A DNA stretch of 64,000 nt from Kiritimatiellia bacterium (GCA_017403825.1 JAFRDO010000016.1:25814-89813), one strand, 5' to 3'; positions 46,091-62,232 are shown, numbered from the stretch's first letter. Notes: a model not told the origin generated them from the sequence alone. Translations and numbers: made by a program.

Positions 46091-48631
46091 ATGAAAAAAT
46101 TGCTTGCCGCACTTGTCTGCGCCGTTGCGTTCCAGCTGACGGTGTCCGCCGAATCCTACACCTACACACCTGGCGACACGTCGCTTGGCAACGGTGCCGT
46201 GACCATCACCTACGATGGTAGCACGACCGACATCGCAACGCTGACCGCGAACCCGTCGGACGGCGAGACGATCACGCTCACGGGCGGCGCGGCAACGTTC
46301 GCCGCTGGCGCGACGATTACGCTCGCCTCGTCCGGCACCGTCGCGTTCGCGGAGAAGGTGACAACCAAGGGTGCGCTTACCCTTGCACGCGGCGACGATG
46401 TGTATCGCGTGTGGACTGGCGCCGCGTTGACGACCGATCATCCAAACACGCCGGCGTTTCCGGATATTGTCACGAACGATCAGATCTCCGCAACCGACGT
46501 GGCGAACACATGGGAATGCATACATGTGGTCGCTAGTGCTCCTAGTACGAGCGGATACAACCACCTTGGTGCTGTTGGGCGTTATGACACTATCGGAGGG
46601 CGGATTGGCAACGACTCATTCGTAACATTGAACCGCAATACCTCTGCGTTCGCCTATTCCATACGTGTCCAGCTGACGCCAAGAGCCGACGGAACCTATG
46701 CCCGTTGCCGCACGGGCGTCCGTTCGCCACGCTACGGCCTCTATCCCGACTTGGAAAAAAACTGGGCAACCGCCGACCTTTGGGGCGATACCGTCGCCAA
46801 TTGGGGCGCGACAAAAGAAGCAAGAGCATTCCGTGGTATCTGGGGTACTTCCGACAGCAATGGCAACGATGCCCAGAAATATGGCGGAACATGGCTTGGC
46901 TATACATCCGCTATGGGGTTGAACAAAATCATCCTCAGGCGCAAGAATTCGCCCGCCGGTGCAATGCAGGTGCGTTTCGATGGCGGCGCAACGCTCGGCG
47001 GCACAACGACAATCCCGTTTGGGATGGAGGCCGTGCTGTCGGTTGGCAATGGAAGCGATTCGTCGGTGCTCTCTCAGCCTATTGAAGGTGATGGCGACTT
47101 CAGGATAAAGCCGATTGATGTTGGCAGCGCCACATCCTACAGGGAAGACTACAGGGAAGACTTCATAACGACCTCCTGGTCGCTTCTTGTCCAAAACCGT
47201 CTTTTGGCCTCGGTTACGTCAATGTCCGCTGAGATGAATGGTTCTAGCCAGCCCACGTCAGTTGCCGCACGATGGTGCCACTACAAGTACGATCCCGCCA
47301 CTGATATGGCAAAGTGCCAGTTCCAATTCTGGAATGGAACGGGAATCAAAGTGGTAAAGGTGGAGTTGAGGCAACAGCCAGATAATAGTGGCAATATACA
47401 GATTAGAGCCACTGGCGCTGGTTATTACACAGGTACTCAATACAATTACAATAATAACGAGCCGGTGGATGTCTATGATCGCAGCAATACGCACACGGTT
47501 GCAACAAACGCCACGGTTGCCAACTACGGTATTCACAAGATTAGGGTGACAACGAGTGATAAGGGTGGCATTGTGACGGTTTCGGGTAACGTTCAGAACC
47601 TGATCGGCGGGCGGTTCACCGTAGAAGGCGGCGACAGCGGGCGGATGATCGCCACGGTTACATCAACGACTGGGCTTCCGGCCGGTGGCGCAGTCCATAT
47701 CAACACCAATGCAGAATTGAGGCTTATGGCCTCTACTACAGCGCCCGCCAACGGTACGTTTGAGTATTTTGTTCATGCCGGGGGACGGCTTCGCAATATC
47801 AACCAGTGGCAGATTTCAAGGCCTCAGAACCTCGTTTTTGACGGAGGAACGTTTTCCGGGTACAGTACAGATGCCTATTTGAACTATGTTACTCTGTCCA
47901 ATGCCAACATGAACGGCACTTACACGCGTGTAGCCTATGACTTACCCAATGCGTATTGGCGGGTGATTGGAACAGCACCGTCAACCATCGCTTTCAGCTC
48001 CGGCTTGAATGCATATGGATATGCTGGTGCTGCTACCGCGCGGAACAACAATTGCGCGTTTCGTATTGAAGTGGCAGATGTGACGGACGGGCCTGACTGC
48101 ATCTTGAACCGCATCCGTGGCGCGGCTAACCGTGGCGCATCAGATCGTGAAAGTTACGCTTGGTTCTGGTTTGAGAAGTACGGTCCGGGTACGCTGAAGA
48201 TTACCGACGACTCCAAGGAAGTTCGCATGGAGTCGAGGCTTTACAATGGTACGCTGTTGCTGGCTGGGAACAACATCATGACGAACGAGGTGCAGCTGTT
48301 GGGCGGCAATCTCGCGGTCGATGCCGGAAAGGCCAACAATAATCTCGGCCAGCTCACGGCGGAGAAGGGCGGCACCATCACGGTTGGTGCGGGCGGCTCG
48401 CTCGGGTTTGCGTCGTTCGCGCCGGGCGCGAATTTGGCGACCAAGTCCATCATGATTGACGCGCCGAAGGATGGCAATGTCCTCAAGTTCAATACTACGT
48501 TCACGGGCGAACAGCTCAGGTACTTCAGATGGAAGGACGAAACTGCACCTGTCGGGTCTTGGCGTGTGGCGCAGGACGCGGACGGCTATATGCACCCGGT
48601 CGAGTGTGGAACGTTCATCTTCATCCGGTAG
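46091..48631 (+). CDS. Large secreted beta-rich protein (autotransporter-passenger-like strands, no beta-barrel), ending ...GTFIFIR
   Basis: MKKLLAALVCAVAFQLTVSA signal, FEKYGPGTLKI...NGTLLL passenger-type repeat. Confidence 0.8.
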   Translation: MKKLLAALVCAVAFQLTVSAESYTYTPGDTSLGNGAVTITYDGSTTDIATLTANPSDGETITLTGGAATFAAGATITLASSGTVAFAEKVTTKGALTLARGDDVYRVWTGAALTTDHPNTPAFPDIVTNDQISATDVANTWECIHVVASAPSTSGYNHLGAVGRYDTIGGRIGNDSFVTLNRNTSAFAYSIRVQLTPRADGTYARCRTGVRSPRYGLYPDLEKNWATADLWGDTVANWGATKEARAFRGIWGTSDSNGNDAQKYGGTWLGYTSAMGLNKIILRRKNSPAGAMQVRFDGGATLGGTTTIPFGMEAVLSVGNGSDSSVLSQPIEGDGDFRIKPIDVGSATSYREDYREDFITTSWSLLVQNRLLASVTSMSAEMNGSSQPTSVAARWCHYKYDPATDMAKCQFQFWNGTGIKVVKVELRQQPDNSGNIQIRATGAGYYTGTQYNYNNNEPVDVYDRSNTHTVATNATVANYGIHKIRVTTSDKGGIVTVSGNVQNLIGGRFTVEGGDSGRMIATVTSTTGLPAGGAVHINTNAELRLMASTTAPANGTFEYFVHAGGRLRNINQWQISRPQNLVFDGGTFSGYSTDAYLNYVTLSNANMNGTYTRVAYDLPNAYWRVIGTAPSTIAFSSGLNAYGYAGAATARNNNCAFRIEVADVTDGPDCILNRIRGAANRGASDRESYAWFWFEKYGPGTLKITDDSKEVRMESRLYNGTLLLAGNNIMTNEVQLLGGNLAVDAGKANNNLGQLTAEKGGTITVGAGGSLGFASFAPGANLATKSIMIDAPKDGNVLKFNTTFTGEQLRYFRWKDETAPVGSWRVAQDADGYMHPVECGTFIFIR

Positions 48632-48715
48632 GCAATAATTCCATATGCCGGCATATACGTGGCTGCTGGGCGGCGCCTGGCGTGGATGTACCTGCCCTCC
48701 ATTTGCTGATCGGCC

Positions 48716-50044: not shown

Positions 50045-50061
50045 CAGATTGTTGCGGGTGA

Positions 50062-50095
50062 ATTGCGCTTGGCGGCAGAGTTTGATATAATGTGT
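50062..50095 (+). promoter_or_regulatory. Promoter TTGCGC-17-TATAAT (copy 2 of the 34-bp repeat)
   Basis: attgcgcttggcggcagagtttgatataatgtgt. Confidence 0.8.
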
Positions 50096-50169
50096 ATGAT
50101 GTGAACGGCTATGTCCATCCAAAGGTCTTTGGCGGCAGGATTATCGTCAAATAATCACAAGAGGGCAAA

Positions 50170-51228
50170 ATGAACGGACATTCAGGAATAGGGCGTCGGG
50201 CGTTCCTTGGTGCAGGCGCGGCAACGCTGCTTGCGGGCGGGGTATCTGGCAAGACCGGTGCGTCGGGGCGGCCTGACGGCGACGAAGTGAAGTTCTGCGC
50301 GTTCGCGGACATTCACTACTACCCAGGGGTGTTCCCGCATGACACCCGCGAATGGCTCGAGCGGGTCCTTGACCGTGCCGAGAAGTCCAAGGTCGACTTC
50401 ATAATCCACATGGGCGACTTCACACACACGCCTGTCCGCTGCAAGGACTACGTGGACTTCTACAACGACTTCCGCATCAAGACCTACCATACCGTGGGCA
50501 ACCACGACGACGACGGCAATTCGCATGCGGAGACGCTGGCGGCATACCGGCTCGACCGCGGCTACTACTACTTCGACCGCGGAGGTTTCCGCTTCATCGT
50601 TACGGACACGAACAACTGCCTTGTGGACGGCAAGTGGACGCATTACTCCAATTCCAACTACTATGCCGTCGGACGGAAGGACGGAAACCTCATCACCCGC
50701 GTGCCGCCGGAGCAGCTGGAATGGCTGAAGGCGACGATCGAAGGCTCGCCGTACCCGTGCATCATAACGAGCCACGCCAGCTACGAACGCGAGGACGGTT
50801 CGCCGGACCGCGCTGCCGTGCGCCGGATATTTGACGAGGCGAACGCGAAGCATCCCGGCCGTGTGCGACTTGTGATCAACGGGCATCACCACTGCGACCA
50901 CGTTCGCATGCTGGAGAATATCGTCTATTTGGATCTTAACTCTGCCAGCTATGACTGGATGGATAAGACGCACACGGCCTATCCAGAAGAGGACGTCAAG
51001 CGCTGGAAGCACGCGCGGCACGTTATTGCGTGGAACGACCCTGTGAACGCGATCATCACGATAAACCGGAACGGTCACCTGAAGGTCGAGGGGCAGAGGA
51101 GCGAGTTCTACCGCGGCGTCACGCCCGTCATGGCGGGCCTGCCGCCGACCAACGGGCGCCAGCGCCGTCTCATCACCCCGAACGTCCAGTCGTTTGAGAT
51201 GACGATAGCATATCCAGGCGCTTCGTGA
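50170..51228 (+). CDS. Tat-exported calcineurin-like metallophosphoesterase
   Basis: GRRAFL twin-Arg signal, ADIH, GDF, GNHD, SH, NGHHH. Confidence 0.9.
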   Translation: MNGHSGIGRRAFLGAGAATLLAGGVSGKTGASGRPDGDEVKFCAFADIHYYPGVFPHDTREWLERVLDRAEKSKVDFIIHMGDFTHTPVRCKDYVDFYNDFRIKTYHTVGNHDDDGNSHAETLAAYRLDRGYYYFDRGGFRFIVTDTNNCLVDGKWTHYSNSNYYAVGRKDGNLITRVPPEQLEWLKATIEGSPYPCIITSHASYEREDGSPDRAAVRRIFDEANAKHPGRVRLVINGHHHCDHVRMLENIVYLDLNSASYDWMDKTHTAYPEEDVKRWKHARHVIAWNDPVNAIITINRNGHLKVEGQRSEFYRGVTPVMAGLPPTNGRQRRLITPNVQSFEMTIAYPGAS

Positions 51229-51275
51229 TTCTATCTTAGCTGATCGTCTGACCGTGTTCCGATGACAAGAAAAGA

Positions 51276-52352
51276 ATGGAAAAGGACATGTCCGGCAGAA
51301 AGGATTTCCTGAAAGGCGGCGTCGCGGAGGGAGGAGAGGCAGCGGCGAAACCGAAGTTCGCATGGTCGTTTCTCGTCCATTTTGGCATGAACATGTGGGG
51401 AGACATCGTCTCCAAGCCGAGCCGCAACGGGCTAATCAAGAAGCGGCTCACCGACGAGGAGTTCGCGCTCGTATGCGGCGACGACTACCTTGCGCTAGAC
51501 CGCGTCCGCTTCGACGAGGCGCTCTGGCGCGACCTCTCGGAGCAGCTCAAGAAGGACGGCTGCAATCAGATCGTGGTCGATGTCGGCGAGTTCCTGAAAT
51601 ACCCAAGCCACCCCGAACTGGCGGTAAAGGGCAGCTGGAGCGCGGAGCGGCTCGCGGCGGAGGTGAAGCGACTGAATTGCATGGGGTTCGAGGTCGTGCC
51701 TAAGCTCAACTTCTCCTGCTGCCACCGCACATGGCTCGGCGAGTATGCGCGGATGGTGTCGACGCCGAAGTACTATGAGGTCTGCGCCGACCTCATCCGC
51801 GATGCGCTTGAGGTGTTCAAGGGTACGCGCTTCCTTCACATCGGCATGGACGAAGAGCACATGCCGTCGTACCAACGCTACAACAGGATGCTGGTGATGC
51901 GTCAGGGGGAACTTTGGTGGCACGATGCGCTTTGGCTTGTGAAGGAAGTGGAGAAGCATGACGTGCGCGCCTGGATGTGGCACGATTTCCTGCGCAAGCA
52001 CAAGATGGAGGAGTTTGCGAAGCGTATGCCGAAGACTGTTGTGCAGAGCCCGTGGACGTATCAGATCGACGACACTACGCGGTACGAGAACCTGTTCTGG
52101 ATCTTCCGCACGCTTTCTAAGGGCGGGTATGACACCGTTCCGTGCAGTTCGCATTGCTACGGCGGTGACAAAGGATTCGTGAAGTTGGCGGAATGGTGCA
52201 GGGACAACATGGATCCCGCGCATTTCATTGGCTTCCAAATGGCACCTTGGATGCAGACGGGCGAGGCGTACAGGCGGTTGCTTTTCAGAGGTTCCGAACT
52301 TCTCGCTGAGGCGCGGCGAGCGTTGTGCCAAAATTTGCCGCATTTGCAATAA
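51276..52352 (+). CDS. TIM-barrel glycoside-hydrolase-like protein (GH20-like) with vestigial Tat motif
   Basis: YPSHPEL, VVPKLNFS, HIGMDEE (GH20-type D-E pair), WMWHD; start at 51276 or 51288. Confidence 0.7.
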   Translation: MEKDMSGRKDFLKGGVAEGGEAAAKPKFAWSFLVHFGMNMWGDIVSKPSRNGLIKKRLTDEEFALVCGDDYLALDRVRFDEALWRDLSEQLKKDGCNQIVVDVGEFLKYPSHPELAVKGSWSAERLAAEVKRLNCMGFEVVPKLNFSCCHRTWLGEYARMVSTPKYYEVCADLIRDALEVFKGTRFLHIGMDEEHMPSYQRYNRMLVMRQGELWWHDALWLVKEVEKHDVRAWMWHDFLRKHKMEEFAKRMPKTVVQSPWTYQIDDTTRYENLFWIFRTLSKGGYDTVPCSSHCYGGDKGFVKLAEWCRDNMDPAHFIGFQMAPWMQTGEAYRRLLFRGSELLAEARRALCQNLPHLQ

Positions 52353-52372
52353 CGTGGAATATTTGGTACAAT
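52344..52372 (+). promoter_or_regulatory. Promoter TTGCAA-17-TACAAT (TG-extended)
   Basis: ttgcaa-taacgtggaatatttgg-tacaat. Confidence 0.65.
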
Positions 52373-52424
52373 TTGGTGCGAAAGATTGGAAAACCTTTCA
52401 AACAATTCAAGGGAGAAAATAAAG

Positions 52425-54563
52425 ATGCGTACGGTAGCAAACAATGTAAGAGGTATGTTTTTCGTTTCCCTTCTCGGAGCGATGGCGGGTATTCTTGCAG
52501 CACAGGCCGAGACGGTCACCGCCGAACCCGATGCCTTCCTTGAATACGTTGGGGCGACAGGAACGCAGTACATCGATACTGGTGTCAACGCCGAGACGGG
52601 GCTGAAGGCGCGACTCGACTTCGCGTGGGATACATCCGTGACAAGTGGTTCCGACTGGTCGCTTCTCGCCGCCGCCACGGCTGACAACAGTTCAGACAAC
52701 CGTTCGCGCATTTTTCTCTGTCATTATTATGGCGGTGGCGGGAAACCGTTCTTCGGCTACGGCCTCAAACAGCGCGGGAATCCCGCGAAGTCGTTCGTAT
52801 TCGCCGCCGGGCGGCGATACGAGATTGTCTCTGACATGTCTGACACCAACTCTTTTGAACTGGTCCAGAACGGCATGAAGACGTTCAGCACTGCTGACCG
52901 CGAGACGTATGCGGCGAACGGCAACAACGTCAACCTGAACCTCAACCTTTTCGTATTCGCATGCAACTACGGGGGGAATCCCACCTGGAAAAGCAAGGGC
53001 AAGCTCTATGAGCTGAAGATTTTCAAGAAGACCGGCGAGATTGCCGGAACGAACACATTTGATCTCATCCGCCACTACCTGCCTTGCATCAAGAACGGTC
53101 GCGCCGGACTTTACGACAAGGTGAACGGTACGATTTCCTATTCTTTCACGTCCGGGTCGGACTTCGTCGCCGGGCCGGTGCTCGACAAGCCGCTTGACTT
53201 CGTGAAGTGGGTCTGGACGAACGGCAAGCAGTGGTTTGACACGCTCGTCTGGGGCAAGAGTGGACTCAAGAGCGAGGTGGACATCTCCGTGCGCGAATAC
53301 GAGGGCGACCACTGCATTCTTGGAACCCGCCGCAACAACAACCGCTATTATCCGGCCTACAGCTACGAGAAGCGGTTCCGATACGCCTATGGAACAATGC
53401 CCAAAAGGGAGAACACGAACATTTCCGTCCCGACAAATGACGTGTCCTACTACATGGACACGCGCTATCTCATCAAGTCCGACCTTCGAGACGGCTATCA
53501 GTCCGTGATCGTCGACAAGAACGGCGGCGCGTACGTCGTTGAACTTCACAAGGACGATCAGGCCTATCTTACGGGCGAGAACGTCGTGACCAACACGATG
53601 GCGCTAATGGCCTGCCATCAGGACAACAGCTACACATTTCCTTCGAAAGGTCTCATCTACGCAACTAAGATCTGGGACGGCGACGAACTGCTGCGTGACT
53701 TCGTACCAGTTGTGGCGACCAATGCCGAGGGCGTGGCCTACGCCGGTCTCTATGACACGGTGTCCGAGCGCATCTTCCGCCAGATAGGAACAGCGGAGTT
53801 CGACCTTGCCAGTCAGGTTGGCGGTGTCACCAACTCGCTCCGCACCGCTGTCGCCAGCCCGACGACGCGCATAGGGTACATCGATTCCGATGCGTTGCTT
53901 GACTATGTTGATTTGGGAATCATCGGCAAGGACGGCGTGGAAATGGAAACGGAGATGGCGTGGCTTTACGTCCCGACCGACGGCGCGTTTGTCGGTGCAC
54001 GAACGAATACGCAACAAGACCACGGTGGCAATACTGGCGTGAGGTTCTACCCATACCATTACTGGAAAAATGCCGAAGCTGGGTCGCGGCATCGCCTTTG
54101 CTACGACGGCGATCTGTTCGTGATCGGCTCCCAGGCCGCAACGGCGAACACGAAGTATCGCATTGCCACGCGACTCGATGTGGATTGTGGCTATGCCTCT
54201 CTCTCCACTTTCTCGAATGGTGCGTGGGGTGCGCCGGAAACACGTACTATTCTCCCCGAAAACGGCTACGACAGTCCTGTTAATACGGGGCTTCCCCTCT
54301 ACCTTTTCGCTGTCAACATCGACGGTGTGCCGCGGTTCCCCGGCAAGGTGCGTCTCTATAAGCTGAAGCTCAAGGAGAAGCAGCAGGACGGATCGTATGC
54401 GCTTGTGCGCGACCTTGTGCCTGTGTTTGACCCTGCGACGGGCGGCGCGGCGCTCTGGGACAAGGTGACGGAATCGTATTTCCGCAACGGCGGCAAGTAT
54501 CAGCTCGCCGGCGGCGGCGCGGAAAGACCGATTGCGCCGGGTGTCATAATTTCAATTAAATGA
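52425..54563 (+). CDS. Secreted protein with three repeats of a ~220-aa beta-sandwich (LamG/ConA-like) domain, ending ...GVIISIK
   Basis: Signal peptide; repeats open with (L/I)EY..TG.QYIDTG and close with Y..KI...L.R.(F/Y)VP...GLYD.V. Confidence 0.8.
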   Translation: MRTVANNVRGMFFVSLLGAMAGILAAQAETVTAEPDAFLEYVGATGTQYIDTGVNAETGLKARLDFAWDTSVTSGSDWSLLAAATADNSSDNRSRIFLCHYYGGGGKPFFGYGLKQRGNPAKSFVFAAGRRYEIVSDMSDTNSFELVQNGMKTFSTADRETYAANGNNVNLNLNLFVFACNYGGNPTWKSKGKLYELKIFKKTGEIAGTNTFDLIRHYLPCIKNGRAGLYDKVNGTISYSFTSGSDFVAGPVLDKPLDFVKWVWTNGKQWFDTLVWGKSGLKSEVDISVREYEGDHCILGTRRNNNRYYPAYSYEKRFRYAYGTMPKRENTNISVPTNDVSYYMDTRYLIKSDLRDGYQSVIVDKNGGAYVVELHKDDQAYLTGENVVTNTMALMACHQDNSYTFPSKGLIYATKIWDGDELLRDFVPVVATNAEGVAYAGLYDTVSERIFRQIGTAEFDLASQVGGVTNSLRTAVASPTTRIGYIDSDALLDYVDLGIIGKDGVEMETEMAWLYVPTDGAFVGARTNTQQDHGGNTGVRFYPYHYWKNAEAGSRHRLCYDGDLFVIGSQAATANTKYRIATRLDVDCGYASLSTFSNGAWGAPETRTILPENGYDSPVNTGLPLYLFAVNIDGVPRFPGKVRLYKLKLKEKQQDGSYALVRDLVPVFDPATGGAALWDKVTESYFRNGGKYQLAGGGAERPIAPGVIISIK

Positions 54564-54585
54564 TCAAGGCGAATAGAGGCAAACA

Positions 54586-56673
54586 ATGCACTACAAGATG
54601 CTGAACGTCAAAACGCCGAATAAACCAAGCGGGTGCAAGCTATTGGCTTTCCTGCTGTGCGCAACGACGGGTCTCCTTGCGGCATGGGCGGAGACCATTG
54701 ATGGTACGCCTGACTCCTACATTGATTACATCGAGTCGACCGGGGCGCAGTATATCGATACTGGCGTCAACGCTGAGACCGGCCTCAAGGCGCGTGCCGA
54801 CTTCTCGTGGGGAAGCAAGGTCAATAATTACGACGACTGGGGGTTTCTCGGTGCAAAGGATGGCTATAGCGGCGACAATAGCACGCGCATGCTTATGATT
54901 CATCTCGGTGGCGATAAGCCCTATATCGGCTACGGGCTGAAGAGTCGCGGCTACCCTGGAAATGCAATAAGCGTTACGCGCAATGTGCGCGGTGAAATTC
55001 TTGTTGACTTCTCAGACTACAACGCGCTTCAGATCTATCAGAACGGTTCCAACACGATGACCTCCGCCAATCAGGAGGCCTATGCGGTGCACGGCAATGT
55101 CAATCTCAATCTCAACCTTTACGCATTCGCCTACAACCAGGCGGGCACGGCAGGTGGAAAATGCAAGGCCAAGCTCTACGAGCTGAAGATCATGAAGAAG
55201 AACGCTTCAGGTGGCTTCGACATCCTCCGCCATTATCTGCCGTGCCTCAAGAACGGACGTGCCGCGCTCTACGACAAGGCAAATGGCAAGATATATTTCT
55301 CAGACAGCGGTACGGATTTCTTAGCGGGGTCAGAGTTGCCGCGCCCAGCCGAGATGGTCGAATGGGTGCAGTCGAACAACAAGGATTATAATTGGCTTGA
55401 TACGCTGGTTTATGCAAAGAGCGGCCTTAGAAGCGAGGTCGATTTCATCCACAAGGATGCCAATCAGATTTCTGGCCACACAGACGTTGACCGTTGTGTT
55501 CTTGGTGCGCGTATAACCAACACCGGAGCGATGGCAGCGTCTCGGTTTTATCTGACCTACTTCTATCAAGGGGTGTTTTGCTATGGTTATCGGAATCTTT
55601 ATTATAAAGACGGGGCTAATGTAAACGAAGTGTCTGCGGTAAACGGCAGTCGCTATCTTGTCGAAAGCGATCTCTCCGCCGGCAATCAGTCCGTGACGGT
55701 CAACGGAACGGAACTGCACAAGGATGGCGTTGCGCATGACGAGACTTATTTTGCCACTGGAAACGATCTCTCGCTCTTTGCCATGCATCTAGGGACCGGC
55801 CATACGTGTCATTCTGCCGTGCGCCTCTTCTACGCGAAGATATGGGACGGCGACGAACTGCTGCGAGACTTCGCGCCGTGCGTTGACAGCACTGGCAAGG
55901 CCGGGCTATACGATGGCGTTACGGAGCGCATCTTCTATTTGGGCGAGAATAAGGTTTTCGACCCGACAAACTGCGTGGGAGGGGTCACGAACTGGCTTTT
56001 GCTTGCCGACGGAACGCTTCCCGATGCGAAGATTTCATACATCGAATCCGACGGCACGAACGATTACTTCGATGTGGGCGTGATAGCAAAGGATGGCGTT
56101 GAGATGGAGGCCGTTATGGAGTGGCTGACCGTGCCGAAGGATGGTGCGTTCGTCAGCGCACGTACGGATACGCCTTCAATTATGCGGTTTTTCCCTTATC
56201 ATTACTGGGGCGGGTACCATCGCCTTGGCTATGCGGGAGAAGGCTTTGCGTATGGCGGGGCGGCGACCGCAGGGCAGAAGTACAAGGTCGTGACCCATTA
56301 TGATGCGGGCAACCAAACGGCATCGATAAGCGCGCTTGTCAATGGCGCGTGGAGCGACGTTGGCTCTATCAGCAAGACATTGTCCGGTCCGGTGGACACG
56401 GGGCTTTCGCTTTACCTGTTTGCAAGAAACTACAATAACTCGGCAGACTATCCAGGCCATGCCCGCATGTACAAGCTGAAGTTCAGGGAGAAGCAGCAGG
56501 ACGGCACGTACAAGCTGACGCGTGATTTCGTGCCGGTGATGAAGGACGGCAAGGCGATGCTTTACGACAGGGTGAGTGGAACATTCTTCCGCAACAAGGG
56601 CCGCTACCTTGCGATCGGAGGCGGTTCGGAACGGGAATGGTTCGAGGGCGGCGCAACTATCGTGATTCGCTGA
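54586..56673 (+). CDS. Tandem paralogue: secreted protein with three LamG/ConA-like repeats, ending ...GATIVIR
   Basis: YIESTGAQYIDTGVNAETGLKAR, KIWDGDELLRDF and EKQQDG blocks shared with the upstream gene. Confidence 0.82.
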   Translation: MHYKMLNVKTPNKPSGCKLLAFLLCATTGLLAAWAETIDGTPDSYIDYIESTGAQYIDTGVNAETGLKARADFSWGSKVNNYDDWGFLGAKDGYSGDNSTRMLMIHLGGDKPYIGYGLKSRGYPGNAISVTRNVRGEILVDFSDYNALQIYQNGSNTMTSANQEAYAVHGNVNLNLNLYAFAYNQAGTAGGKCKAKLYELKIMKKNASGGFDILRHYLPCLKNGRAALYDKANGKIYFSDSGTDFLAGSELPRPAEMVEWVQSNNKDYNWLDTLVYAKSGLRSEVDFIHKDANQISGHTDVDRCVLGARITNTGAMAASRFYLTYFYQGVFCYGYRNLYYKDGANVNEVSAVNGSRYLVESDLSAGNQSVTVNGTELHKDGVAHDETYFATGNDLSLFAMHLGTGHTCHSAVRLFYAKIWDGDELLRDFAPCVDSTGKAGLYDGVTERIFYLGENKVFDPTNCVGGVTNWLLLADGTLPDAKISYIESDGTNDYFDVGVIAKDGVEMEAVMEWLTVPKDGAFVSARTDTPSIMRFFPYHYWGGYHRLGYAGEGFAYGGAATAGQKYKVVTHYDAGNQTASISALVNGAWSDVGSISKTLSGPVDTGLSLYLFARNYNNSADYPGHARMYKLKFREKQQDGTYKLTRDFVPVMKDGKAMLYDRVSGTFFRNKGRYLAIGGGSEREWFEGGATIVIR

Positions 56674-56686
56674 CAAAATACGCCGC

Positions 56687-57979
56687 ATGAATGCCATGTT
56701 GCTGCTTTGCGCGCTCCTTGCGGCGAGCGTGGACGTGCGCGAGTACGGCGCCAAGGGCGACGGTGTCACTAAGGACACCAAGTCTATCCAGGCTGCAATC
56801 GATGCCGTCGCGCGCATCGGCGGCGGCACGGTGCGCATCGGCGGCGGCACGTACCTGACGGGCTCCATCTACCTGAAAAGCGGCGTCGACCTGTTCCTTG
56901 ACGGCGACGTGGCGCTGAAGGGGAGTCCTGACAGGGAGGACTACAACGCCGTGGACGTGTGTCCGCAAAACTGGTCGAGCAAGGCGGAGTCCGCCTCGGG
57001 CGCGCATCTGATCCTCTGCATAGAGCAGACGAACGTGACCGTGCGGGGGACGGGGCGCATCGACGGGAACTGTGCGGCGTTCGTGCTTGATCCCGACGGA
57101 CGTCCCTGGCCGGGCGGACAGGGCGGCATTCCGTGGCGGCCGAGCCAGATGCTCTACTTCGTGGAGTGCGACGGCGTGCGCGTGGAAAGCGTTTCGCTCG
57201 TAGATTCTCCGTACTGGTCGTGCTTCTTCCACGGCTGCACGCGGGTGACGGCGCGGAACCTCCGCGTGAGGACCCGGCGCGAGCCGTTCCATACGCACAA
57301 CGGCGACGGAATCGACATAGACTGTTGCGAGGATGTGGAGGTCTCGTGGTGCGACATCAACACTGCGGACGACTCGATCACGCTGCGCGCCGACGTGGCG
57401 CGCCTGAAGCGTCCGCGTCCGTGCGCTCGCGTCCGGGTTTCGGACTGCCGCCTCGCTTCCACCTGCAACGCCGTGCGTGTCGGAGTCGGCGACGGGGAGG
57501 TGCGCGATGCGTCGTTCAGGAACATCGAGATATACGATACGCGAACGGCGGTGGACTTCGTGTCGTCCTGGCGGCGCGGCGGCAGGGGCGTGTCCATGGA
57601 CGGCATTGCGTTCGACGGCATGAAGGTGGAGGCTGTCCTTTTCTGCCGCATCAGCCCCAGCTTTGCGAAGGAGACGCGGATAGGCAACATTCGGTTCGCC
57701 AACGTGACGGGGCGCACCGAATGCGCCTCGTGGATCACGGGCCGCGCTTGCAGTCCGGTCGGAACTGTCGTCTTCAAGAACGTGGACCTGCCGCATGGCG
57801 TGGTATGCCTGAACGCGCCGGACGTGCGCATTGAGGGCGGGCGGTTCGAGCGCAAGGTGCCGTCCGATGGCGAGAAGTCGGCCTATGATCGCGTTATCGC
57901 CGAGAAGGACCGTTTCCCGTGCGTGTTCAGCGGCCCGCTGTACGATTCGATACAGAATCGCCGCACCCGCACCCGTTGA
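56687..57979 (+). CDS. GH28-like (polygalacturonase/pectin-lyase fold) glycoside hydrolase
   Basis: DVREYGAKGDGVTKDT..IQAAID, SPYW, NGDGIDID, ADDSI. Confidence 0.88.
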   Translation: MNAMLLLCALLAASVDVREYGAKGDGVTKDTKSIQAAIDAVARIGGGTVRIGGGTYLTGSIYLKSGVDLFLDGDVALKGSPDREDYNAVDVCPQNWSSKAESASGAHLILCIEQTNVTVRGTGRIDGNCAAFVLDPDGRPWPGGQGGIPWRPSQMLYFVECDGVRVESVSLVDSPYWSCFFHGCTRVTARNLRVRTRREPFHTHNGDGIDIDCCEDVEVSWCDINTADDSITLRADVARLKRPRPCARVRVSDCRLASTCNAVRVGVGDGEVRDASFRNIEIYDTRTAVDFVSSWRRGGRGVSMDGIAFDGMKVEAVLFCRISPSFAKETRIGNIRFANVTGRTECASWITGRACSPVGTVVFKNVDLPHGVVCLNAPDVRIEGGRFERKVPSDGEKSAYDRVIAEKDRFPCVFSGPLYDSIQNRRTRTR

Positions 57980-58052
57980 CTGGATTCAAAGTAATGGGTT
58001 AGTAGGCTGCGGGATTTACTGGTTTGGTCGCAGAGTTCGCAGAATTTGCGTC

Positions 58053-58141
58053 CGATTCCCGATTGTCGTCACCTCCCCGCATAGAACTCGACATTGGCAT
58101 TTCATCAACTTTTCAGTTGTGCGGGGCGACAATCGGAATCG
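58053..58141. repeat. Imperfect intergenic hairpin (~90 nt)
   Basis: cgattcccgattgtcg/cgacaatcggaatcg and ccccgcat/gtgcgggg. Confidence 0.6.
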
Positions 58142-58195
58142 TCCGCGGTTGTTCGCCTATGGCAGTCGGCAGCACGGATTCAAGCGCCATCGGCG

Positions 58196-58225
58196 TTGCA
58201 TTGGCGGGTGAAGATTTGTTATACT
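58196..58225 (+). promoter_or_regulatory. Promoter TTGCAT-18-TATACT (TG-extended)
   Basis: ttgcat-tggcgggtgaagatttgt-tatact, followed by GGAGG and GTG 58255. Confidence 0.65.
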
Positions 58226-58254
58226 GTCCACAACAATGAAATTGGAGGTCTAAC

Positions 58255-61200
58255 GTGACATTGGCTGCAAAACCTTTCGTGTTAACACTCACCTTTGCCT
58301 TGTTGGCTGCAGACGCCGTCGCCGAGACGGTGACCTTGGCCCCGCCGGCGGGCGTCACTACAAACGTCATCGCGCTGTTCACCGGCGACACGGCGGTTGA
58401 GGTCGCCGGTCCCGGAACGGTGAGGCTCAACAACTCCAACCTGCACACTGGTGGTACCACGCTTTCCGGCGGCGCGCTCGTAATCTCCGGCAACATTCCG
58501 GTGGGTGGGCCTTCGCCGGTCGGAACGGGCACGTTCACCGTCTCCGGCGGCACACTGCGCGGCACCGGAACCTTCGGCGGCGACATAATTGGAACGGGCG
58601 ATTTCACAATCGAGGCGCCAAATGGCTTTGTCCTATCGGGAAACAATGCGTTCGGCGGCAAGATCACCATCGCGGATGGCACCCTTGGAATCGCCAGTGG
58701 AACGACTGCGTTCTCGCAGCATCTTTACATGACGGGCACCTCCGCATATTCGCAGACGGGCGGTGCCGTTACGATGGACGCGAACAACGTCCAACTCGCC
58801 TACGGCAACGACGCGGCATCGTCCTTCGCGATGACTGGCGGCACGTTCGACGCCAACGGCAGGAACGTCGTTGTGGGATTCGGCGCGACCGGTGCGTCGG
58901 CGACCATCGACATCTCAGGCGGCGCGGTCTTCCAGAACGCTGGGAACGTCTATTCCTACCAGAACGGTAACTCGCTTACGCTTTCGGTTCGCGACGGCGG
59001 CATATTCGCTGCAAAGCGCATCTATGCGTCAAGTGGTGGTTCGACGGCCGCGATTTCCGTCGCGGACGGCGGCACTCTCGGGTTCACCAACATCTACGCC
59101 AACGCCAGTGGCTCGGCGACGCTCTCCATCAACGGTGGAATTCTGCGCAATGACGGCGCGCCGTCCATTAGTGCCGATTATTACAAGTGGATACAGGACA
59201 GCGCCAACCTTTCCGTTTCCGTGGGGCCGGGAGGCGCAACATTCAAGGATGGCGGGAAGACGACGAAGTTCGCGCAGATCTACAAGGAAATGACAGCCGA
59301 TGTCGGCGACGGCTCTGCGCCGAAAGGCGTCGTCTTCGACGGCGGCAACTGGGCCTACTACGTTGCACAGTCCTACGCCGGACCTACCGTCATCAAGAAC
59401 GGCGCCGCGCTATTCCTTCCGAACAACGGCACGATTCCGTCCGGCTCCGCCGTCACCATTGCGTCGGGTAGCAGGCTTCACATCGGAAACACGGACAAAT
59501 CGGTATCTTCCCTCGTCCTTGGAGAGGGCGCGATCATCGGGACGGGATCGAGTGCGAAGTCGCTCTCTGTCACCGGCAATGTCACGCTTCCTTCGCGCGC
59601 TAAAATCGGGTTCTACAACGCCACATCTCCGACGAGTTCCGCCAAGAACACGAACGGAACCTACGAAATACTGAAGGTTCCCGCCTCTTACGCCGACGAG
59701 CTTCGCGCCGTCTCATGGTCGTGCGCGACTGCGACGAGCGGCAAGTCCTACACGTTCTCGGTGGCGACGAGCGGCGACACGGCGACGCTCTCCATGACAA
59801 TCGCCGCCGCTCCTTCTGGCACGTTCGCCGTTTCCGATGATACGGCGCTTGGCGGAACGCTCACCGTCAGCGGCGACATCACTATCGGCAGCGACGCGAC
59901 GCTTGCCGCTTCGCCCATCAATGGCACGACAACTGGCGGATCTATCACCATCAACAACGGCGGTACGCTCGACGCTTCCGGCGACAACATCCGCCCCGTT
60001 AACGCAAGCGGGAACTCGTTCCACCTTTACCTCAACGAAGGCGGAACGCTTGTCGTAAACCAGATTCATGGCGTCAGTTCCGGCGCGGCCATGAACGAGG
60101 CAACAGGGACGCCCATGTTCCACTTCAACGGCGGTACGATCCAGCCCGTCGCGTTCGAGGACGATGCCGCCAGTGGTCTGCGCTATCTTCTCAACTACCA
60201 GACCGCCCTCGTCGGCGAGAACGGCATGGTTATCGACCTGTCGAACTGGTCGCGTCCCGCCGGATACGACATCTGGGTGCGCAGCACTCTTCAGGGCAAC
60301 GTCAACCACGACCCGAGCTGCGCGGGCACGGACGGCGGCATCACGGTGAAGGCGACGGTCGATGACAGGGCGCTTGTCTGCTTCGGCGGACGATTCAACG
60401 GCTCCACGCTCACGGGCGGCATTCTGGCGGAAGACGGCGCCATCGTCGCCGCAACCACCAGCGGTCTTGAAGGGCAGACCCTCACGCTCCAGCCCGGTTC
60501 GCGCTTCCGTCCCTACAATACAAATGCCATCCAGATTGGCGACCTCACGTTTGGCGAAGCGGGTGCGACGAAGGCGGTGGTCTTCGACTGCTCGAACAGC
60601 ACGACTGGTTACGGCGTAGTCGTCACCGACACGCTCTCCATCCTCTCGCCGGTGAAGTTTTCAGTTACGCCAGGCTGGAGCGTGGATTCCACCCTCTCGT
60701 CCGGTACGTACACCGCGCTCGTCTATCAGGCGTCGTGCAGCGTCGATCCGTCGCTCTTCCGGCTCCCCGCGAACGCACCAGCAGGTGCGACGCTTTCCGC
60801 CGAAGAGGTTGTGCTCGCCGCCGGTGACTATGCCGGCTGCAAGGCTCTCGTCGTCACAATCGCCAACGACATCGTCGTCACGGGCTCTACATCGCATCCC
60901 ACTCCGCTCACTGTCTCTGAGGATGCCGCCGTCGGCAGCATCGTCGTCGGTGGAGCGTGGAACGGCGAGGCCGATCCCGTCTGCGAGACTTCGCTGACGA
61001 TTTCCGGGAACGTCACGGCATCGACGGGGCTTTACCTTGGCTACAATCCCGCGCCGGGCGTGGACAAGGACAACTGGCACAAGGGATTCCTCACGCTGAA
61101 CGGCGGCTCGATCACCACGCCGCTGTTCTATTCAATCTATCGTCCCGGCATGACAGGCAACAACGACTCCGACTGCCGTTTCGGGTGCGAGGCGACCGTG

Positions 61201-62232
61201 AACGGCGGGCTTTTGGATGTTGCGGGCGACGTCCGTCTTGGCTTCAACCGTTCGAGGAACGGCGACAACCTGTATTCGCGCCTCGCGGTGAACGCAGGGC
61301 GCGTCGCTGTCGGCGGCAAGTTCTATCTGCTTTACGATAACACGCAAGGTGCCTTTACGGCTCCCGGCTCCATTGTCCTGAACGGAGGCGAGGTGGACGT
61401 GAAGGGCGTCATCGACATGTCGCGCAATGCACAGAATCCCGGCAACCAGGCCTATAACACAAAGTTCGGCATCTGGCTCAACGGCGGCGTCCTGAAGGCG
61501 GAGAACATCATGATGACCGCCGCCTCGGCCACAACGCCGCAGGTTGTTTTCAACGGCGGCACCTACGCCCCATACGGCGCGGCGGCGGCGAACCGTACGA
61601 TGGAGTACCCGAACAAGGTTTATGTTTCGACGAATGGCGCGGTGATTTCCACGGCGAACATGCCCGCCGGAGCGACGTACACGATTGCGCAGAACCTCCT
61701 AACCGATCCGGTGCTTGGCGGCACCGCCGACGGCGGCCTCACGAAGCGCGGCGCGGGAACCCTTTCCCTGACAGGCGCAAACACCTTCACCGGCCAGACG
61801 GTTGTCGAGGAAGGCACGCTTGTCGTCGGAAGCGTCGCTGCGCTCTCCGCGTCCGTTGCCGTGGCCAACGGCGCGGTGCTGGACGCCTCGGGCGCGGACC
61901 TGTCGCTCGCTGAAGTTGCGGCGAGCGGCGCTGTCGTAGCCGATTCGGTCGCCGTGTCTGGCACCTTGAAGCTCTCGGGCATCGGCTCGGTACTGTCGGT
62001 TTGCGGCAACGTGAGCATTCCCCGGCGTGCGGCGATCGACTTCGGACTCGCGGCCGGAGCAACGCCCGATTACGACTGGTGCCCGGTCCTTGCGGCATCT
62101 GGAACGATAGTCGCATCCCCGATTGTCCATGCGACGAACTGCGGCGCGTTCAACCGGTGCGAGACTGCGGTGCGGGACGGCGTCCTGTACGTGCGGCCGA
62201 CGTCGGTAGGCGTGATGATACTCATCAAATGA
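58255..62232 (+). CDS. Large secreted beta-helix protein with autotransporter-associated beta-strand repeats, no beta-barrel, ending ...GVMILIK
   Basis: Signal peptide, GPGTVRLNNSNLHTGGTTLSGGAL, GGLTKRGAGTLSLTGANTFTGQTVVEEGTL; no terminal aromatic beta-signal. Confidence 0.85.
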   Translation: MTLAAKPFVLTLTFALLAADAVAETVTLAPPAGVTTNVIALFTGDTAVEVAGPGTVRLNNSNLHTGGTTLSGGALVISGNIPVGGPSPVGTGTFTVSGGTLRGTGTFGGDIIGTGDFTIEAPNGFVLSGNNAFGGKITIADGTLGIASGTTAFSQHLYMTGTSAYSQTGGAVTMDANNVQLAYGNDAASSFAMTGGTFDANGRNVVVGFGATGASATIDISGGAVFQNAGNVYSYQNGNSLTLSVRDGGIFAAKRIYASSGGSTAAISVADGGTLGFTNIYANASGSATLSINGGILRNDGAPSISADYYKWIQDSANLSVSVGPGGATFKDGGKTTKFAQIYKEMTADVGDGSAPKGVVFDGGNWAYYVAQSYAGPTVIKNGAALFLPNNGTIPSGSAVTIASGSRLHIGNTDKSVSSLVLGEGAIIGTGSSAKSLSVTGNVTLPSRAKIGFYNATSPTSSAKNTNGTYEILKVPASYADELRAVSWSCATATSGKSYTFSVATSGDTATLSMTIAAAPSGTFAVSDDTALGGTLTVSGDITIGSDATLAASPINGTTTGGSITINNGGTLDASGDNIRPVNASGNSFHLYLNEGGTLVVNQIHGVSSGAAMNEATGTPMFHFNGGTIQPVAFEDDAASGLRYLLNYQTALVGENGMVIDLSNWSRPAGYDIWVRSTLQGNVNHDPSCAGTDGGITVKATVDDRALVCFGGRFNGSTLTGGILAEDGAIVAATTSGLEGQTLTLQPGSRFRPYNTNAIQIGDLTFGEAGATKAVVFDCSNSTTGYGVVVTDTLSILSPVKFSVTPGWSVDSTLSSGTYTALVYQASCSVDPSLFRLPANAPAGATLSAEEVVLAAGDYAGCKALVVTIANDIVVTGSTSHPTPLTVSEDAAVGSIVVGGAWNGEADPVCETSLTISGNVTASTGLYLGYNPAPGVDKDNWHKGFLTLNGGSITTPLFYSIYRPGMTGNNDSDCRFGCEATVNGGLLDVAGDVRLGFNRSRNGDNLYSRLAVNAGRVAVGGKFYLLYDNTQGAFTAPGSIVLNGGEVDVKGVIDMSRNAQNPGNQAYNTKFGIWLNGGVLKAENIMMTAASATTPQVVFNGGTYAPYGAAAANRTMEYPNKVYVSTNGAVISTANMPAGATYTIAQNLLTDPVLGGTADGGLTKRGAGTLSLTGANTFTGQTVVEEGTLVVGSVAALSASVAVANGAVLDASGADLSLAEVAASGAVVADSVAVSGTLKLSGIGSVLSVCGNVSIPRRAAIDFGLAAGATPDYDWCPVLAASGTIVASPIVHATNCGAFNRCETAVRDGVLYVRPTSVGVMILIK

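What the first reader, a model, noticed from the sequence alone, without database searches (positions are those of the whole stretch)
46091..62232. Shared 7-residue C-terminal tag G-x-x-I-x-I-[R/K]-stop on four secreted proteins: candidate undescribed sorting/secretion signal
Seen: four signal-peptide proteins end PVEC-GTFIFIR* (46091-48631), PIAP-GVIISIK* (52425-54563), WFEG-GATIVIR* (54586-56673) and PTSV-GVMILIK* (58255-62232). G(-7), I(-4), I(-2) and a basic last residue are invariant, and three have Pro at -11. The bodies belong to two unrelated types (beta-helix passenger-like and triple LamG-like), so whole-gene paralogy cannot explain the tag. None of the enzymes in the window carry it. 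Established: it is too short for a PEP-CTERM/LPXTG transmembrane anchor or a T9SS CTD (~80 aa), and it lacks the terminal aromatic of the BAM beta-signal. Inference: it is a single terminal beta-strand read by a lineage-specific export or surface-attachment machine, for example by beta-augmentation. I know of no named model for it, but novelty is unverified.
Basis: partly seen in the sequence, partly recalled or inferred. Interest (0 to 1): 0.85.

Follow-up and report, generated by a model that had tools for sequence, protein, structure and literature searches.

The report
Seven-residue C-terminal tag on exported proteins
About a hundred large exported proteins of this uncultured gut Kiritimatiellae bacterium end in the same short tail (glycine, five greasy residues, then arginine or lysine), which looks like an undescribed address or anchor label, though what reads it is unknown.

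Summary
The four window proteins end GTFIFIR, GVIISIK, GATIVIR and GVMILIK. In the whole genome, 99 of 2753 gene-like ORFs end G-x-x-[ILVFM]-x-[ILVFM]-[RK]; 2.2 are expected. These 99 fall into 42 unrelated body clusters, and 87 have a signal-peptide-like N-terminus. Conservation covers only the last 7-9 residues: (P)-x-G-Φ5-[R/K]-COOH. Codons, stop codons and downstream DNA vary, so selection acts on the protein. The tag is kept in homologues from ruminant, horse and human gut Kiritimatiellae MAGs. Homologues labelled Planctomycetales and Flavobacteriales lack it. In one β-helix family it follows NCBIfam's "choice-of-anchor Q" domain, where two other homologues carry a T9SS sorting domain. 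Two AlphaFold2 models (LamG-like and β-helix bodies) leave the tail unpacked. It is not PEP-CTERM: the genome has an exosortase and two classical PEP-CTERM proteins of its own. It is not a T9SS domain, and it differs from this organism's BamA-type β-signal, which ends in Phe. I read it as a new short extracytoplasmic sorting or surface-anchoring signal. No reader was found: Omp85, secretin, exosortase and FGE-like families do not track the tag. Four literature searches found no description.

The parts
46091..48631 (+). 846-aa signal-peptide protein of unknown family (no Pfam or NCBIfam hit). It belongs to a cluster of 8 tagged paralogues in the genome. Ends ...DADGYMHPVECGTFIFIR*.
48608..48628 (+). 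Tag codons G-T-F-I-F-I-R (stop at 48629-48631).
   Evidence: coordinates by arithmetic from the ORF end
52425..54563 (+). 712-aa protein (ORF opens at TTG 52386; the ATG at 52425 gives the signal peptide). Paralogue of the next gene. Ends ...AERPIAPGVIISIK*.
54540..54560 (+). Tag codons G-V-I-I-S-I-K.
54586..56673 (+). 695-aa protein with three LamG/concanavalin-like jelly-roll domains (AlphaFold2 mean pLDDT 89.7; best PDB matches are laminin LG and neurexin LNS domains). The tail after a GGG linker is not packed. Ends ...GGGSEREWFEGGATIVIR*.
56650..56670 (+). Tag codons G-A-T-I-V-I-R.
58255..62232 (+). 1325-aa protein with autotransporter-associated β-strand repeats (PATR PF12951, 49 bits; TIGR02601, 56.7 bits) but no β-barrel domain. 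Ends ...YVRPTSVGVMILIK*.
62209..62229 (+). Tag codons G-V-M-I-L-I-K.

Best explanation
The tail (P)-x-G-Φ-Φ-Φ-Φ-Φ-[R/K]-COOH is a short, lineage-specific extracytoplasmic sorting signal of host-associated Kiritimatiellae. It marks large Sec-exported, mostly glycan-binding or glycan-cleaving-like proteins (LamG-like, parallel β-helix, PATR) for display on, or tethering to, the cell envelope.

Proposed mechanism (inferred, not shown). After Sec export and signal-peptide removal the body folds in the periplasm. The tail stays free behind a Pro/Gly turn. Its five hydrophobic residues, terminal basic side chain and free carboxylate then dock as an added β-strand into a receptor of the envelope: an outer-membrane or scaffold protein, or part of an outer-membrane translocon. 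In effect it would work as a 7-residue 'mini-dockerin' or address label.

Shown: the tag exists; it is strongly enriched at C-termini of signal-peptide proteins; it is selected at protein level across unrelated bodies and across genera; it is not part of the fold in two models; in one family it occupies the slot where relatives carry a T9SS sorting domain.

Inferred: where it acts, its strand conformation, non-covalent docking, and that a receptor exists.
For: 1. Enrichment: 99 of 2753 gene-like ORFs against 2.2 expected; 7 of 8288 non-gene ORFs.

2. The strict tag is on 55 of 254 crude-SP-positive proteins of 600-999 aa and on 22 of 100 of at least 1000 aa.

3. There are 42 unrelated body clusters. 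Information is confined to positions -9 to -1.

4. Protein-level selection: the tagged genes use TGA 52, TAA 24 and TAG 23; eight different codons for the last residue; four Gly codons; and share no downstream 12-mer.

5. Conservation: 79 of the 120 listed homologues of the 695-aa window protein (45-70% identity) keep the strict tag. By my reading of the list, all but about 3 of the other 41 keep a variant. Of 126 representatives at 50% clustering for a β-helix cargo, 73 have the strict tag and 16 a variant.

6. Of 31 related loci in named genomes I read 22 strict, 6 variant and 1 cut by the contig end. The Planctomycetales- and Flavobacteriales-labelled homologues stop right after the ...DIGCYE(N/Y)W.. 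motif with no tag, so the tag is an appendage.

7. NCBIfam choice-of-anchor Q (NF041518) ends 10-13 residues before the C-terminus in tagged proteins: L027 453-496 of 507, L048 454-497 of 507, P0121 552-592 of 605. Homologues P0198 and P0214 carry choice-of-anchor Q followed by the T9SS type A sorting domain TIGR04183 (45.6 and 28.8 bits, cut-off 23).

8. AlphaFold2: in the 695-aa model residues 691-695 have pLDDT 56 and 681-690 have 74, against a mean of 89.7, with no DSSP strand after 684. In the 624-aa β-helix model the blocks 611-620 and 621-624 have 76 and 69, against a mean of 89.1, with no strand in the last 24 residues.

9. Cargo folds are of the surface-protein kind: LamG/laminin-LG-like and PL6-lyase- or tailspike-like β-helix, Laminin_G_3 and PATR.
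Against: No reader was identified. G000 has a single Omp85. Secretin and exosortase are in 61 of 61 sampled genomes of the order, so they do not track the tag. FGE-like gene counts do not track it either.

Nothing shows localisation, cleavage or binding; there is no proteomic or experimental datum.

Five hydrophobic residues cannot span a membrane, and there is no precedent in bacteria for so short a C-terminal sorting signal.

The monomer models show the tail as coil, not as a strand. Lower pLDDT may also reflect sequence variability.

My signal-peptide test is crude: 33% of untagged ORFs are positive.

The phyletic map rests on a DNA proxy that under-counts. G341 scored 8 against a control of 13, yet holds at least 4 distinct tagged proteins of one family, 3 of them with the strict tag.
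Confidence: 0.5

Rival explanations
1. It is a secretion signal proper. The tag is recognised in the periplasm by an outer-membrane translocon, for example one of the four secretin systems, and the proteins are released or handed on rather than tethered by the tag.
For: G000 encodes 4 secretins. The cargo are large folded β-rich proteins, which are typical substrates of type II-like export (established knowledge). Passages of the Haft 2023 preprint state that GlyGly-CTERM and MYXO-CTERM proteins need a T2SS to reach the surface.
Against: Secretin counts (2-11) do not differ between tag-rich and tag-poor genomes of the order. No linear T2SS signal is known (recalled). Two tagged ORFs continue in frame from anti-sigma-like membrane parts, which would not fit release if they are made as fusions.
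Confidence: 0.15
2. It is the substrate of a sortase-like transpeptidase. The tail is cut at or near G(-7) and the protein is attached covalently to a lipid, LPS or peptidoglycan, as with PorU in T9SS or exosortase.
For: Small residues dominate at -7: G105, P6, A6, N2 and S1 in the broad set. Pro is frequent at -9 and -8. In one family the tag sits in the slot of cleaved sorting domains.
Against: There is no TM segment to hold the precursor at an intramembrane enzyme. The one exosortase is present in all 61 sampled genomes of the order and has two classical PEP-CTERM substrates of its own in G000. No candidate peptidase was found.
Confidence: 0.1
3. It is a self-association motif. The all-hydrophobic strand, flanked by the 'gatekeeper' residues Pro/Gly and Arg/Lys, zips with the tails of other tagged proteins into a shared β-sheet. 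This would co-assemble many cargo proteins into a surface layer or clusters without a dedicated receptor.
For: Composition: five consecutive β-branched or hydrophobic residues between G and R/K. No tag-specific machine was found.
Against: There is no direct evidence. A free aggregation-prone tail on about 100 periplasmic intermediates would be hazardous. It does not explain why the motif must lie at the very C-terminus.
Confidence: 0.1
4. It is a periplasmic quality-control or chaperone tag, for example a ligand of a PDZ-domain protease or chaperone (DegP, Prc or Ctp type). It would time the folding, holding or turnover of very large β-rich proteins.
For: PDZ domains read free C-termini by β-augmentation (established knowledge, recalled). 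The tag is free in the models.
Against: Typical PDZ ligands end in a hydrophobic or aromatic residue, not in Arg or Lys (recalled). Such proteases are near-universal, whereas the tag is lineage-restricted. I did not enumerate PDZ proteins.
Confidence: 0.08
5. It is a BamA β-signal mimic. The core G-x-x-Φ-x-Φ equals the Omp85/Sam50 β-signal core, and the tag docks at the BamA lateral gate.
For: Motif likeness (the consensus is recalled from the literature, not from a call). BamA is present.
Against: The organism's own barrel proteins end in the canonical aromatic residue: BamA ...FSFSVGYDF, and a neighbouring OMP-like protein ...LTLSYSF. The tag is hydrophobic throughout rather than alternating, and it ends in R/K. 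The bodies are LamG and β-helix folds, not barrels. There is a single Omp85 in tag-rich and tag-poor genomes alike.
Confidence: 0.05
6. It has no sorting role: it is a structural cap or last strand of each body.
For: Family-specific strands precede the tag (for example D..GYL, FNS, LxY), so a terminal hairpin is possible.
Against: Two models leave it unpacked. Outgroup homologues fold without it. The same 7-mer pattern sits on 42 unrelated bodies.
Confidence: 0.04

Closest known systems
PEP-CTERM / exosortase and the other tripartite C-terminal sorting domains (LPXTG, GlyGly-CTERM, MYXO-CTERM, PGF-CTERM)
   Same: It lies at the extreme C-terminus, occurs in many copies per genome, sits on signal-peptide proteins that share nothing else, and has a patchy lineage distribution. 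The order of elements is the same: small or Pro-containing motif, hydrophobic stretch, basic end. These are attributes 1, 2, 6 and 7 of the list in 10.1101/2023.06.07.544157 (passages read).
   Different: The hydrophobic stretch is 5 residues instead of a TM helix, there is one basic residue instead of a cluster, and there is no signature of three near-invariant residues. The TIGR02595 model does not hit it, yet it does hit two other proteins of the same genome. Exosortase is present regardless of the tag.
T9SS C-terminal sorting domain (type A, TIGR04183)
   Same: It marks the same kinds of cargo (β-helix, LamG, adhesin-like). In the choice-of-anchor Q family it occupies the same slot. The T9SS domains of P0198 and P0214 also end in a short hydrophobic strand plus Lys (...YKIMKK...KMIILK).
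   Different: The T9SS domain is a folded domain; the NCBIfam model has 72 positions. Here only 7-9 residues are conserved. No tagged protein scanned hit TIGR04183. T9SS is known from Bacteroidota and relatives, not from the PVC group (recalled). My SprA search was uninformative.
BamA/Sam50 β-signal
   Same: It is a terminal strand with a G-x-x-Φ-x-Φ core (consensus recalled), and reading by β-augmentation is the precedent.
   Different: See the rival explanation: it ends in R/K, it is not alternating, the bodies are not barrels, and the organism's own β-signals end in Phe.
Very short C-terminal address labels read as free ends (peroxisomal PTS1 -SKL, ER -KDEL, PDZ ligands)
   Same: It is a few residues long, its position at the free carboxyl end is essential to the pattern, and it sits on unrelated cargo (analogy; recalled knowledge).
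   Different: Those are eukaryotic or cytosolic systems with no homology to this one. No bacterial envelope system of this kind is known to me.
Dockerin-cohesin (cellulosome)
   Same: Many polysaccharide-related proteins of one genome share a C-terminal module that could plug into a common scaffold (analogy).
   Different: A dockerin is a folded Ca-binding domain of about 70 aa (recalled). No scaffold or receptor was found here.

Membership tests
Prokaryotic tripartite C-terminal sorting domains (criteria listed in 10.1101/2023.06.07.544157) | [quoted passage not shown] | tested here: met
   The tag is the last 7 residues in all 99.
Prokaryotic tripartite C-terminal sorting domains | [quoted passage not shown] | tested here: met
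   99 of 2753 ORFs.
Prokaryotic tripartite C-terminal sorting domains | [quoted passage not shown] | tested here: not met
   Only Gly(-7) is fixed, and that is by my regex; Pro at -9 occurs in 33 of 99. In homologues Gly is replaceable.
Prokaryotic tripartite C-terminal sorting domains | Hydrophobic region long enough for a transmembrane helix | tested here: not met
   Five residues, positions -6 to -2.
Prokaryotic tripartite C-terminal sorting domains | Cluster of 2-5 basic residues at the end | tested here: not met
   A single R (78) or K (21).
Prokaryotic tripartite C-terminal sorting domains | Most bearers have an N-terminal signal peptide | tested here: met
   87 of 99 by a crude test. 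Most of the other 12 are ORFs that open too far upstream.
Prokaryotic tripartite C-terminal sorting domains | Many pairs of bearers share no other similarity | tested here: met
   42 clusters.
PEP-CTERM / exosortase | Match to TIGR02595 and co-occurrence with exosortase | tested here: not met
   No hit in the 4 window proteins at E up to 0.1. L067 and L068, two other proteins of G000, score 25.9 and 25.2 bits (cut-off 16). Exosortase is in 61 of 61 genomes of the order.
T9SS sorting domain | Folded C-terminal domain matching TIGR04183 or TIGR04131 | tested here: not met
   No hit in the 4 window proteins or in the 6 tagged proteins among the 10 scanned. Conservation is limited to 7-9 aa.
T9SS sorting domain | T9SS machinery (SprA/Sov, PorV, PorU, GldKLMN) in the genome | tested here: inconclusive
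   SprA_N PF14349 was not found, but the control rang in no genome. FGE-like proteins give only partial GldK/PorK matches (48-69 bits, cut-off 350).
BAM β-signal | Last strand of a β-barrel, ending in an aromatic residue | tested here: not met
   Bodies are LamG-like and β-helix. The tag ends in R/K. The organism's own BamA ends in ...YDF.
LPXTG / sortase | LPXTG-like pentapeptide, TM segment and basic tail | tested here: not met
   None of these is present in the tails. Sortase itself was not searched for.
Choice-of-anchor Q domain proteins (NCBIfam NF041518), the β-helix subset only | NF041518 domain directly upstream of a C-terminal anchor | tested here: met
   L027 42.6, L048 46.8, L058 35.7 and P0121 30.6 bits (cut-off 25); L057 scores 23.8, just below. 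That the name refers to variable anchors is recalled. The variable anchors themselves were seen here: T9SS domain in P0198 and P0214, the tag elsewhere.

The most novel reading that the evidence does not exclude
The tag defines a so far unknown envelope sorting pathway of diderm bacteria. In it a free 7-residue C-terminal strand, with no membrane anchor and no folded domain, is enough to route or plug about 100 different large proteins into a common outer-membrane receptor or scaffold. That would be a bacterial counterpart of PTS1- or KDEL-type labels and a minimal functional replacement for PEP-CTERM and T9SS sorting domains.
Probability: 0.3. Interest if true: 0.9.

Novelty: new variant of a known kind. 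Interest (0 to 1): 0.7.

Why it matters
If it is a sorting or anchoring signal, it gives a one-line rule for predicting the surface proteome of uncultured gut and rumen Kiritimatiellae, which are fibre, mucin and sulfated-glycan degraders. About 4% of this proteome would be covered, and about a quarter of its large exported proteins.

It would show that a C-terminal sorting label in a diderm need be neither a membrane anchor nor a folded domain.

It points to an unknown receptor or translocon that can be found by phylogenetic profiling.

A 7-residue tag would also be an attractive tool for surface display.

Even if the mechanism turns out differently, a motif this enriched and this conserved is a defined, testable object.

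Tried and rejected
Reader hunt by phyletic pattern. A DNA proxy for tag plus stop was compared with Omp85, secretin, exosortase and FGE-sulfatase in 61 genomes of the order. None tracks the tag. The proxy itself is weak. It called G133 positive through short repeats that are not gene ends. It called G341 negative although that genome has tagged proteins.

Neighbourhood enrichment in G000 gave only FGE-like genes, glycosidase-like families, regulators and ATPases, and no machine.

The loci around the four secretins showed nothing telling.

Complex prediction with the FGE-like protein g1198 and the neighbouring small tagged protein g1197 gave no verdict (scores 0.02, 0.41, 0.01; the controls were not run). 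This counts neither for nor against binding.

The self-repeat screen of the 155 largest proteins for a scaffold returned zero for every protein, which I do not trust; it was not used.

The mixed-bin idea, raised because G000 is about twice the size of its genus mates, was rejected: tagged genes lie on most large contigs, which have an even GC content.

A DNA cassette spreading the tag was rejected.

The SprA_N search is uninformative, because the control rang nowhere.

One search printed nothing because of a regex slip of mine; it was corrected.

Not done: PDZ/S41 enumeration, sortase search, read mapping, and a full proteome comparison with a tag-free relative (too many region calls needed).

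Supplementary files of papers were not asked for.

Full report
What is there. They are the only gene-like ORFs of the window with such an end. Pfam and NCBIfam recognise only the 1325-aa protein, through its autotransporter-associated β-strand repeats (PATR 49 bits; TIGR02601 56.7 bits). Nothing matches at any of the four C-termini.

Is it more than chance? The window lies in a 3.93-Mb, 96-contig, 60% GC assembly. CheckM-type figures are 90.8% complete and 3.9% contaminated. I enumerated ORFs myself, as no gene caller was available. The strict pattern G..[ILVFM].[ILVFM][RK]$ ends 106 of 11041 ORFs of at least 100 aa. It ends 99 of 2753 greedy non-overlapping ORFs, where the internal frequency of the same pattern predicts 2.2. 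It ends 7 of the 8288 left-over ORFs, which is the chance level. A crude signal-peptide test is positive in 87 of 99 tagged ORFs and 873 of 2654 untagged ones (odds ratio 14.8, p 9e-29). Most of the 12 negatives are ORFs that open upstream of the true start. Tagged proteins are large, with a median of 846 aa against 374 aa. The strict tag sits on 55 of 254 SP-positive proteins of 600-999 aa and on 22 of 100 of at least 1000 aa.

Anatomy. Information content is confined to the last nine positions (n=99):
- -9: Pro in 33.
- -8: R/P/K.
- -7: Gly (fixed by my regex).
- -6: M/T/A/L/V/F.
- -5: I/V/T/L/M.
- -4: I45, L35, V12.
- -3: I41, S15, L14.
- -2: I52, V20, L14, F13.
- -1: R78, K21.

Upstream there are only family-specific strands. 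About 15 further paralogues keep the hydrophobic core but end in Q/H/N/W/F/Y/L/E. The 99 bodies form 42 BLAST clusters, 26 of them singletons. The tagged genes use all three stop codons (TGA 52, TAA 24, TAG 23), eight codons for the last residue and four for Gly, and they share no downstream 12-mer. The tag is therefore kept at protein level and is not a DNA cassette. Tagged genes lie on most large contigs, which have an even GC content, so the assembly does not look like a mixture.

Conservation and distribution. Two homologues of the 695-aa window protein are named 'Kiritimatiellae bacterium' by their sources; most carry no name. Of the 120 listed (45-70% identity), 79 keep the strict tag. 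By my reading, all but about three of the other 41 keep a variant with N/P/A/S at -7 or another last residue. A β-helix cargo (g0372, locus L057) found 126 representatives in the 50%-clustered library. Of these, 73 have the strict tag and 16 a variant; 36 are 'other', largely fragments or near-variants; one has a PEP-CTERM-like end.

A scan of one genome per species found 31 loci. Most titles name Kiritimatiellae or Kiritimatiellia MAGs from goat omasum, sheep rectum, water-deer rectum, rumen, horse faeces and a Hadza gut sample. By my reading 22 have the strict tag, 6 a variant and 1 is cut by the contig end. The two labelled Planctomycetales and Flavobacteriales stop a few residues after the ...DIGCYE(N/Y)W motif with no tag.

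A DNA proxy for tag plus stop gives 64 hits against 9 for its reversed control in G000. Among 400 other genomes of the phylum, by my reading of the table, ten show at least 18 hits and at least a 3-fold excess:
- family f1: G068, G074, G194, G209, G368, G164;
- family f2: G007;
- family f6: G392;
- family f25: G269;
- family f40: G133.

Ten listed hits each of G007 and G269 were translated: 8 and 7 of them end ORFs open for at least 264 aa (consensus G-T-Φ4-R). G133 is a false positive made of short repeats. The proxy also under-counts. G341 scored 8 against a control of 13, yet has at least 4 distinct tagged proteins of the β-helix family, 3 of them with the strict tag. The map is therefore 'strongly enriched in some Kiritimatiellae lineages, not seen elsewhere in the sample', no more.

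Is the tag part of the fold? Two AlphaFold2 models with alignments say no.

The 695-aa window protein was modelled with 108 sequences (mean pLDDT 89.7). It is three jelly-roll domains whose best PDB matches are laminin LG and neurexin LNS domains. After a conserved GGG linker, confidence falls to 74 for residues 681-690 and 56 for 691-695, and no strand is assigned after 684.

The 624-aa protein g0372 was modelled with 52 sequences (mean pLDDT 89.1). It is a right-handed β-helix like PL6 lyases, lacto-N-biosidase and tailspikes. Its last blocks score 76 and 69, and no strand is assigned in the last 24 residues.

Monomer models cannot show a strand that forms only on a partner.

Comparison with known signals. 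The criteria for small C-terminal sorting domains that I read in 10.1101/2023.06.07.544157 (passages) are met for position, multiplicity, signal peptides and unrelated bearers. They are not met for a three-residue signature, a TM-length hydrophobic segment or a basic cluster.

The genome has its own classical system: one exosortase with an EpsI-like extension and two small proteins with textbook PEP-CTERM tails (TIGR02595, 25.9 and 25.2 bits). Exosortase is present in all 61 sampled genomes of the order. The tag is therefore a separate thing.

Barrel proteins of this organism end in the canonical aromatic β-signal: BamA ends ...FSFSVGYDF. The tag shares the recalled core G-x-x-Φ-x-Φ with that signal, but not its alternation, its last residue or its context.

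In the β-helix family the tag follows NCBIfam's choice-of-anchor Q domain by about ten residues. Two homologues, P0198 and P0214, have the same domain followed by a T9SS type A sorting domain (45.6 and 28.8 bits). This is the best single argument that the tag stands in an 'anchor slot'. Those T9SS domains also end in a short hydrophobic strand plus Lys.

What reads it? Unknown. There is one Omp85 in G000 and one or a few in all relatives. There are four secretins in G000 and 2-11 in relatives. Exosortase is universal in the order. FGE-like gene counts are unrelated to tag status. Gene neighbourhoods of tagged genes hold FGE-like genes, glycosidase-like families and regulators, but no obvious machine.

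Best reading. I commit to an extracytoplasmic sorting or anchoring signal that acts as a free terminal strand docking into a receptor (confidence 0.5 for the class; less for the docking detail). Rivals, in order: a secretion signal proper; a sortase-like cleavage site; a self-association zipper; a quality-control or PDZ ligand; a BamA β-signal mimic; a structural cap.

A possible constraint comes from two tagged ORFs (L125 and L109). They continue in frame from anti-sigma-like N-terminal parts (zf-HC2 21.3 bits, just under the cut-off, plus one TM segment) behind ECF sigma genes. Both also contain a conserved internal AAGGAG-N8-ATG followed by a signal-peptide-like segment. If the fusions are made, the tag works on an inner-membrane-tethered protein. 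That would favour docking at the outer membrane over release. If only the internal start is used, nothing follows.

Novelty. Four full-text searches returned no paper describing such a tag: with terms built around Kiritimatiell*, C-terminal, sorting signal, exosortase, RFP12 and LamG. I saw only listings and abstracts, plus passages of one preprint. I rate it a new variant of a known kind (C-terminal protein-sorting signals), with a 0.3 chance that it marks a categorically new pathway.

Noticed in passing
L060 (g1197) with L065 (g1198); L061 with L066; L062 with L102; L063 with L100; L064 with L103; L108 with L101; L109 with L104; L110 with L106; fused form L107 (g2231): Eight small tagged ORFs of 103-245 aa (signal peptide, low-complexity stretch, often an F-N-S motif, then the tag) each lie directly beside 1-3 genes of a 33-member FGE-sulfatase-like family. 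That family has an N-terminal Ig-like part, PF03781 at about 90 bits, and only partial GldK/PorK and PvdO matches. One family member, g2231, carries the low-complexity stretch and the tag itself. This suggests the small proteins may be tagged adaptors for untagged partners.
   Followed up: partly
L125:1-2502 (-), L128:53-646 (-), L109:1-699 (-), L126:1-534 (-): Two tagged ORFs continue in frame from anti-sigma-like parts (zf-HC2, one TM segment) downstream of ECF sigma genes. Both contain the same stretch CTTGAAGCCAACCAAGGAGAA-NNN-GAA-ATGAACAT, that is a Shine-Dalgarno site and an internal start in front of a signal-peptide-like segment. Whether they are fusion proteins, separate proteins or both is open.
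   Followed up: partly
L067:1-483 (+), L068:4-498 (-); exosortase at G000:C1:31432-33621: There is a classical PEP-CTERM system beside the new tag: two proteins of about 160 aa with VPEP/TPEP, a TM segment and an RRR tail, plus one exosortase whose ORF carries an EpsI-like C-terminal extension.
   Followed up: yes
G000 contigs C10, C90, C79, C6, C51, C88 (proteins g0151, g2625, g2154, g0058, g1283, g2419); outside the window: A second C-terminal pattern, [FYW]-F-[KR]-Φ-x-Φ within the last 13 residues, ends 8 proteins (about 0.9 expected). Among them are a 4291-aa giant and members of a 34-member family with 'LYARWT'-type repeats.
   Followed up: no
L034 (G007) and at least 12 further places of G007 listed: At least 13 copies of the 24-base string encoding G-A-V-I-L-L-R-stop, 11 of them identical and 2 differing by one base, occur in G007, at the end of an ORF of at least 264 aa. 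This is a multi-copy gene, possibly a mobile element, that inflates the proxy count for that genome.
   Followed up: no
L085 and L086: A contig binned under a Limosilactobacillus gorillae label encodes the same tagged tail (...DIGCYQCWIKPVGFKVICK) as a Kiritimatiellaeota MAG contig. It is probably a mis-binned contig.
   Followed up: no
window 50170-51228, 51276-52352, 56687-57979 (+): Untagged genes are interleaved with the four tagged ones, among them proteins of multi-copy families (fam7 with 19 members, fam13 with 10 members) that have signal-peptide-like or Tat-like N-termini. The cluster looks like a polysaccharide-utilisation-type locus. I did not annotate them.
   Followed up: no
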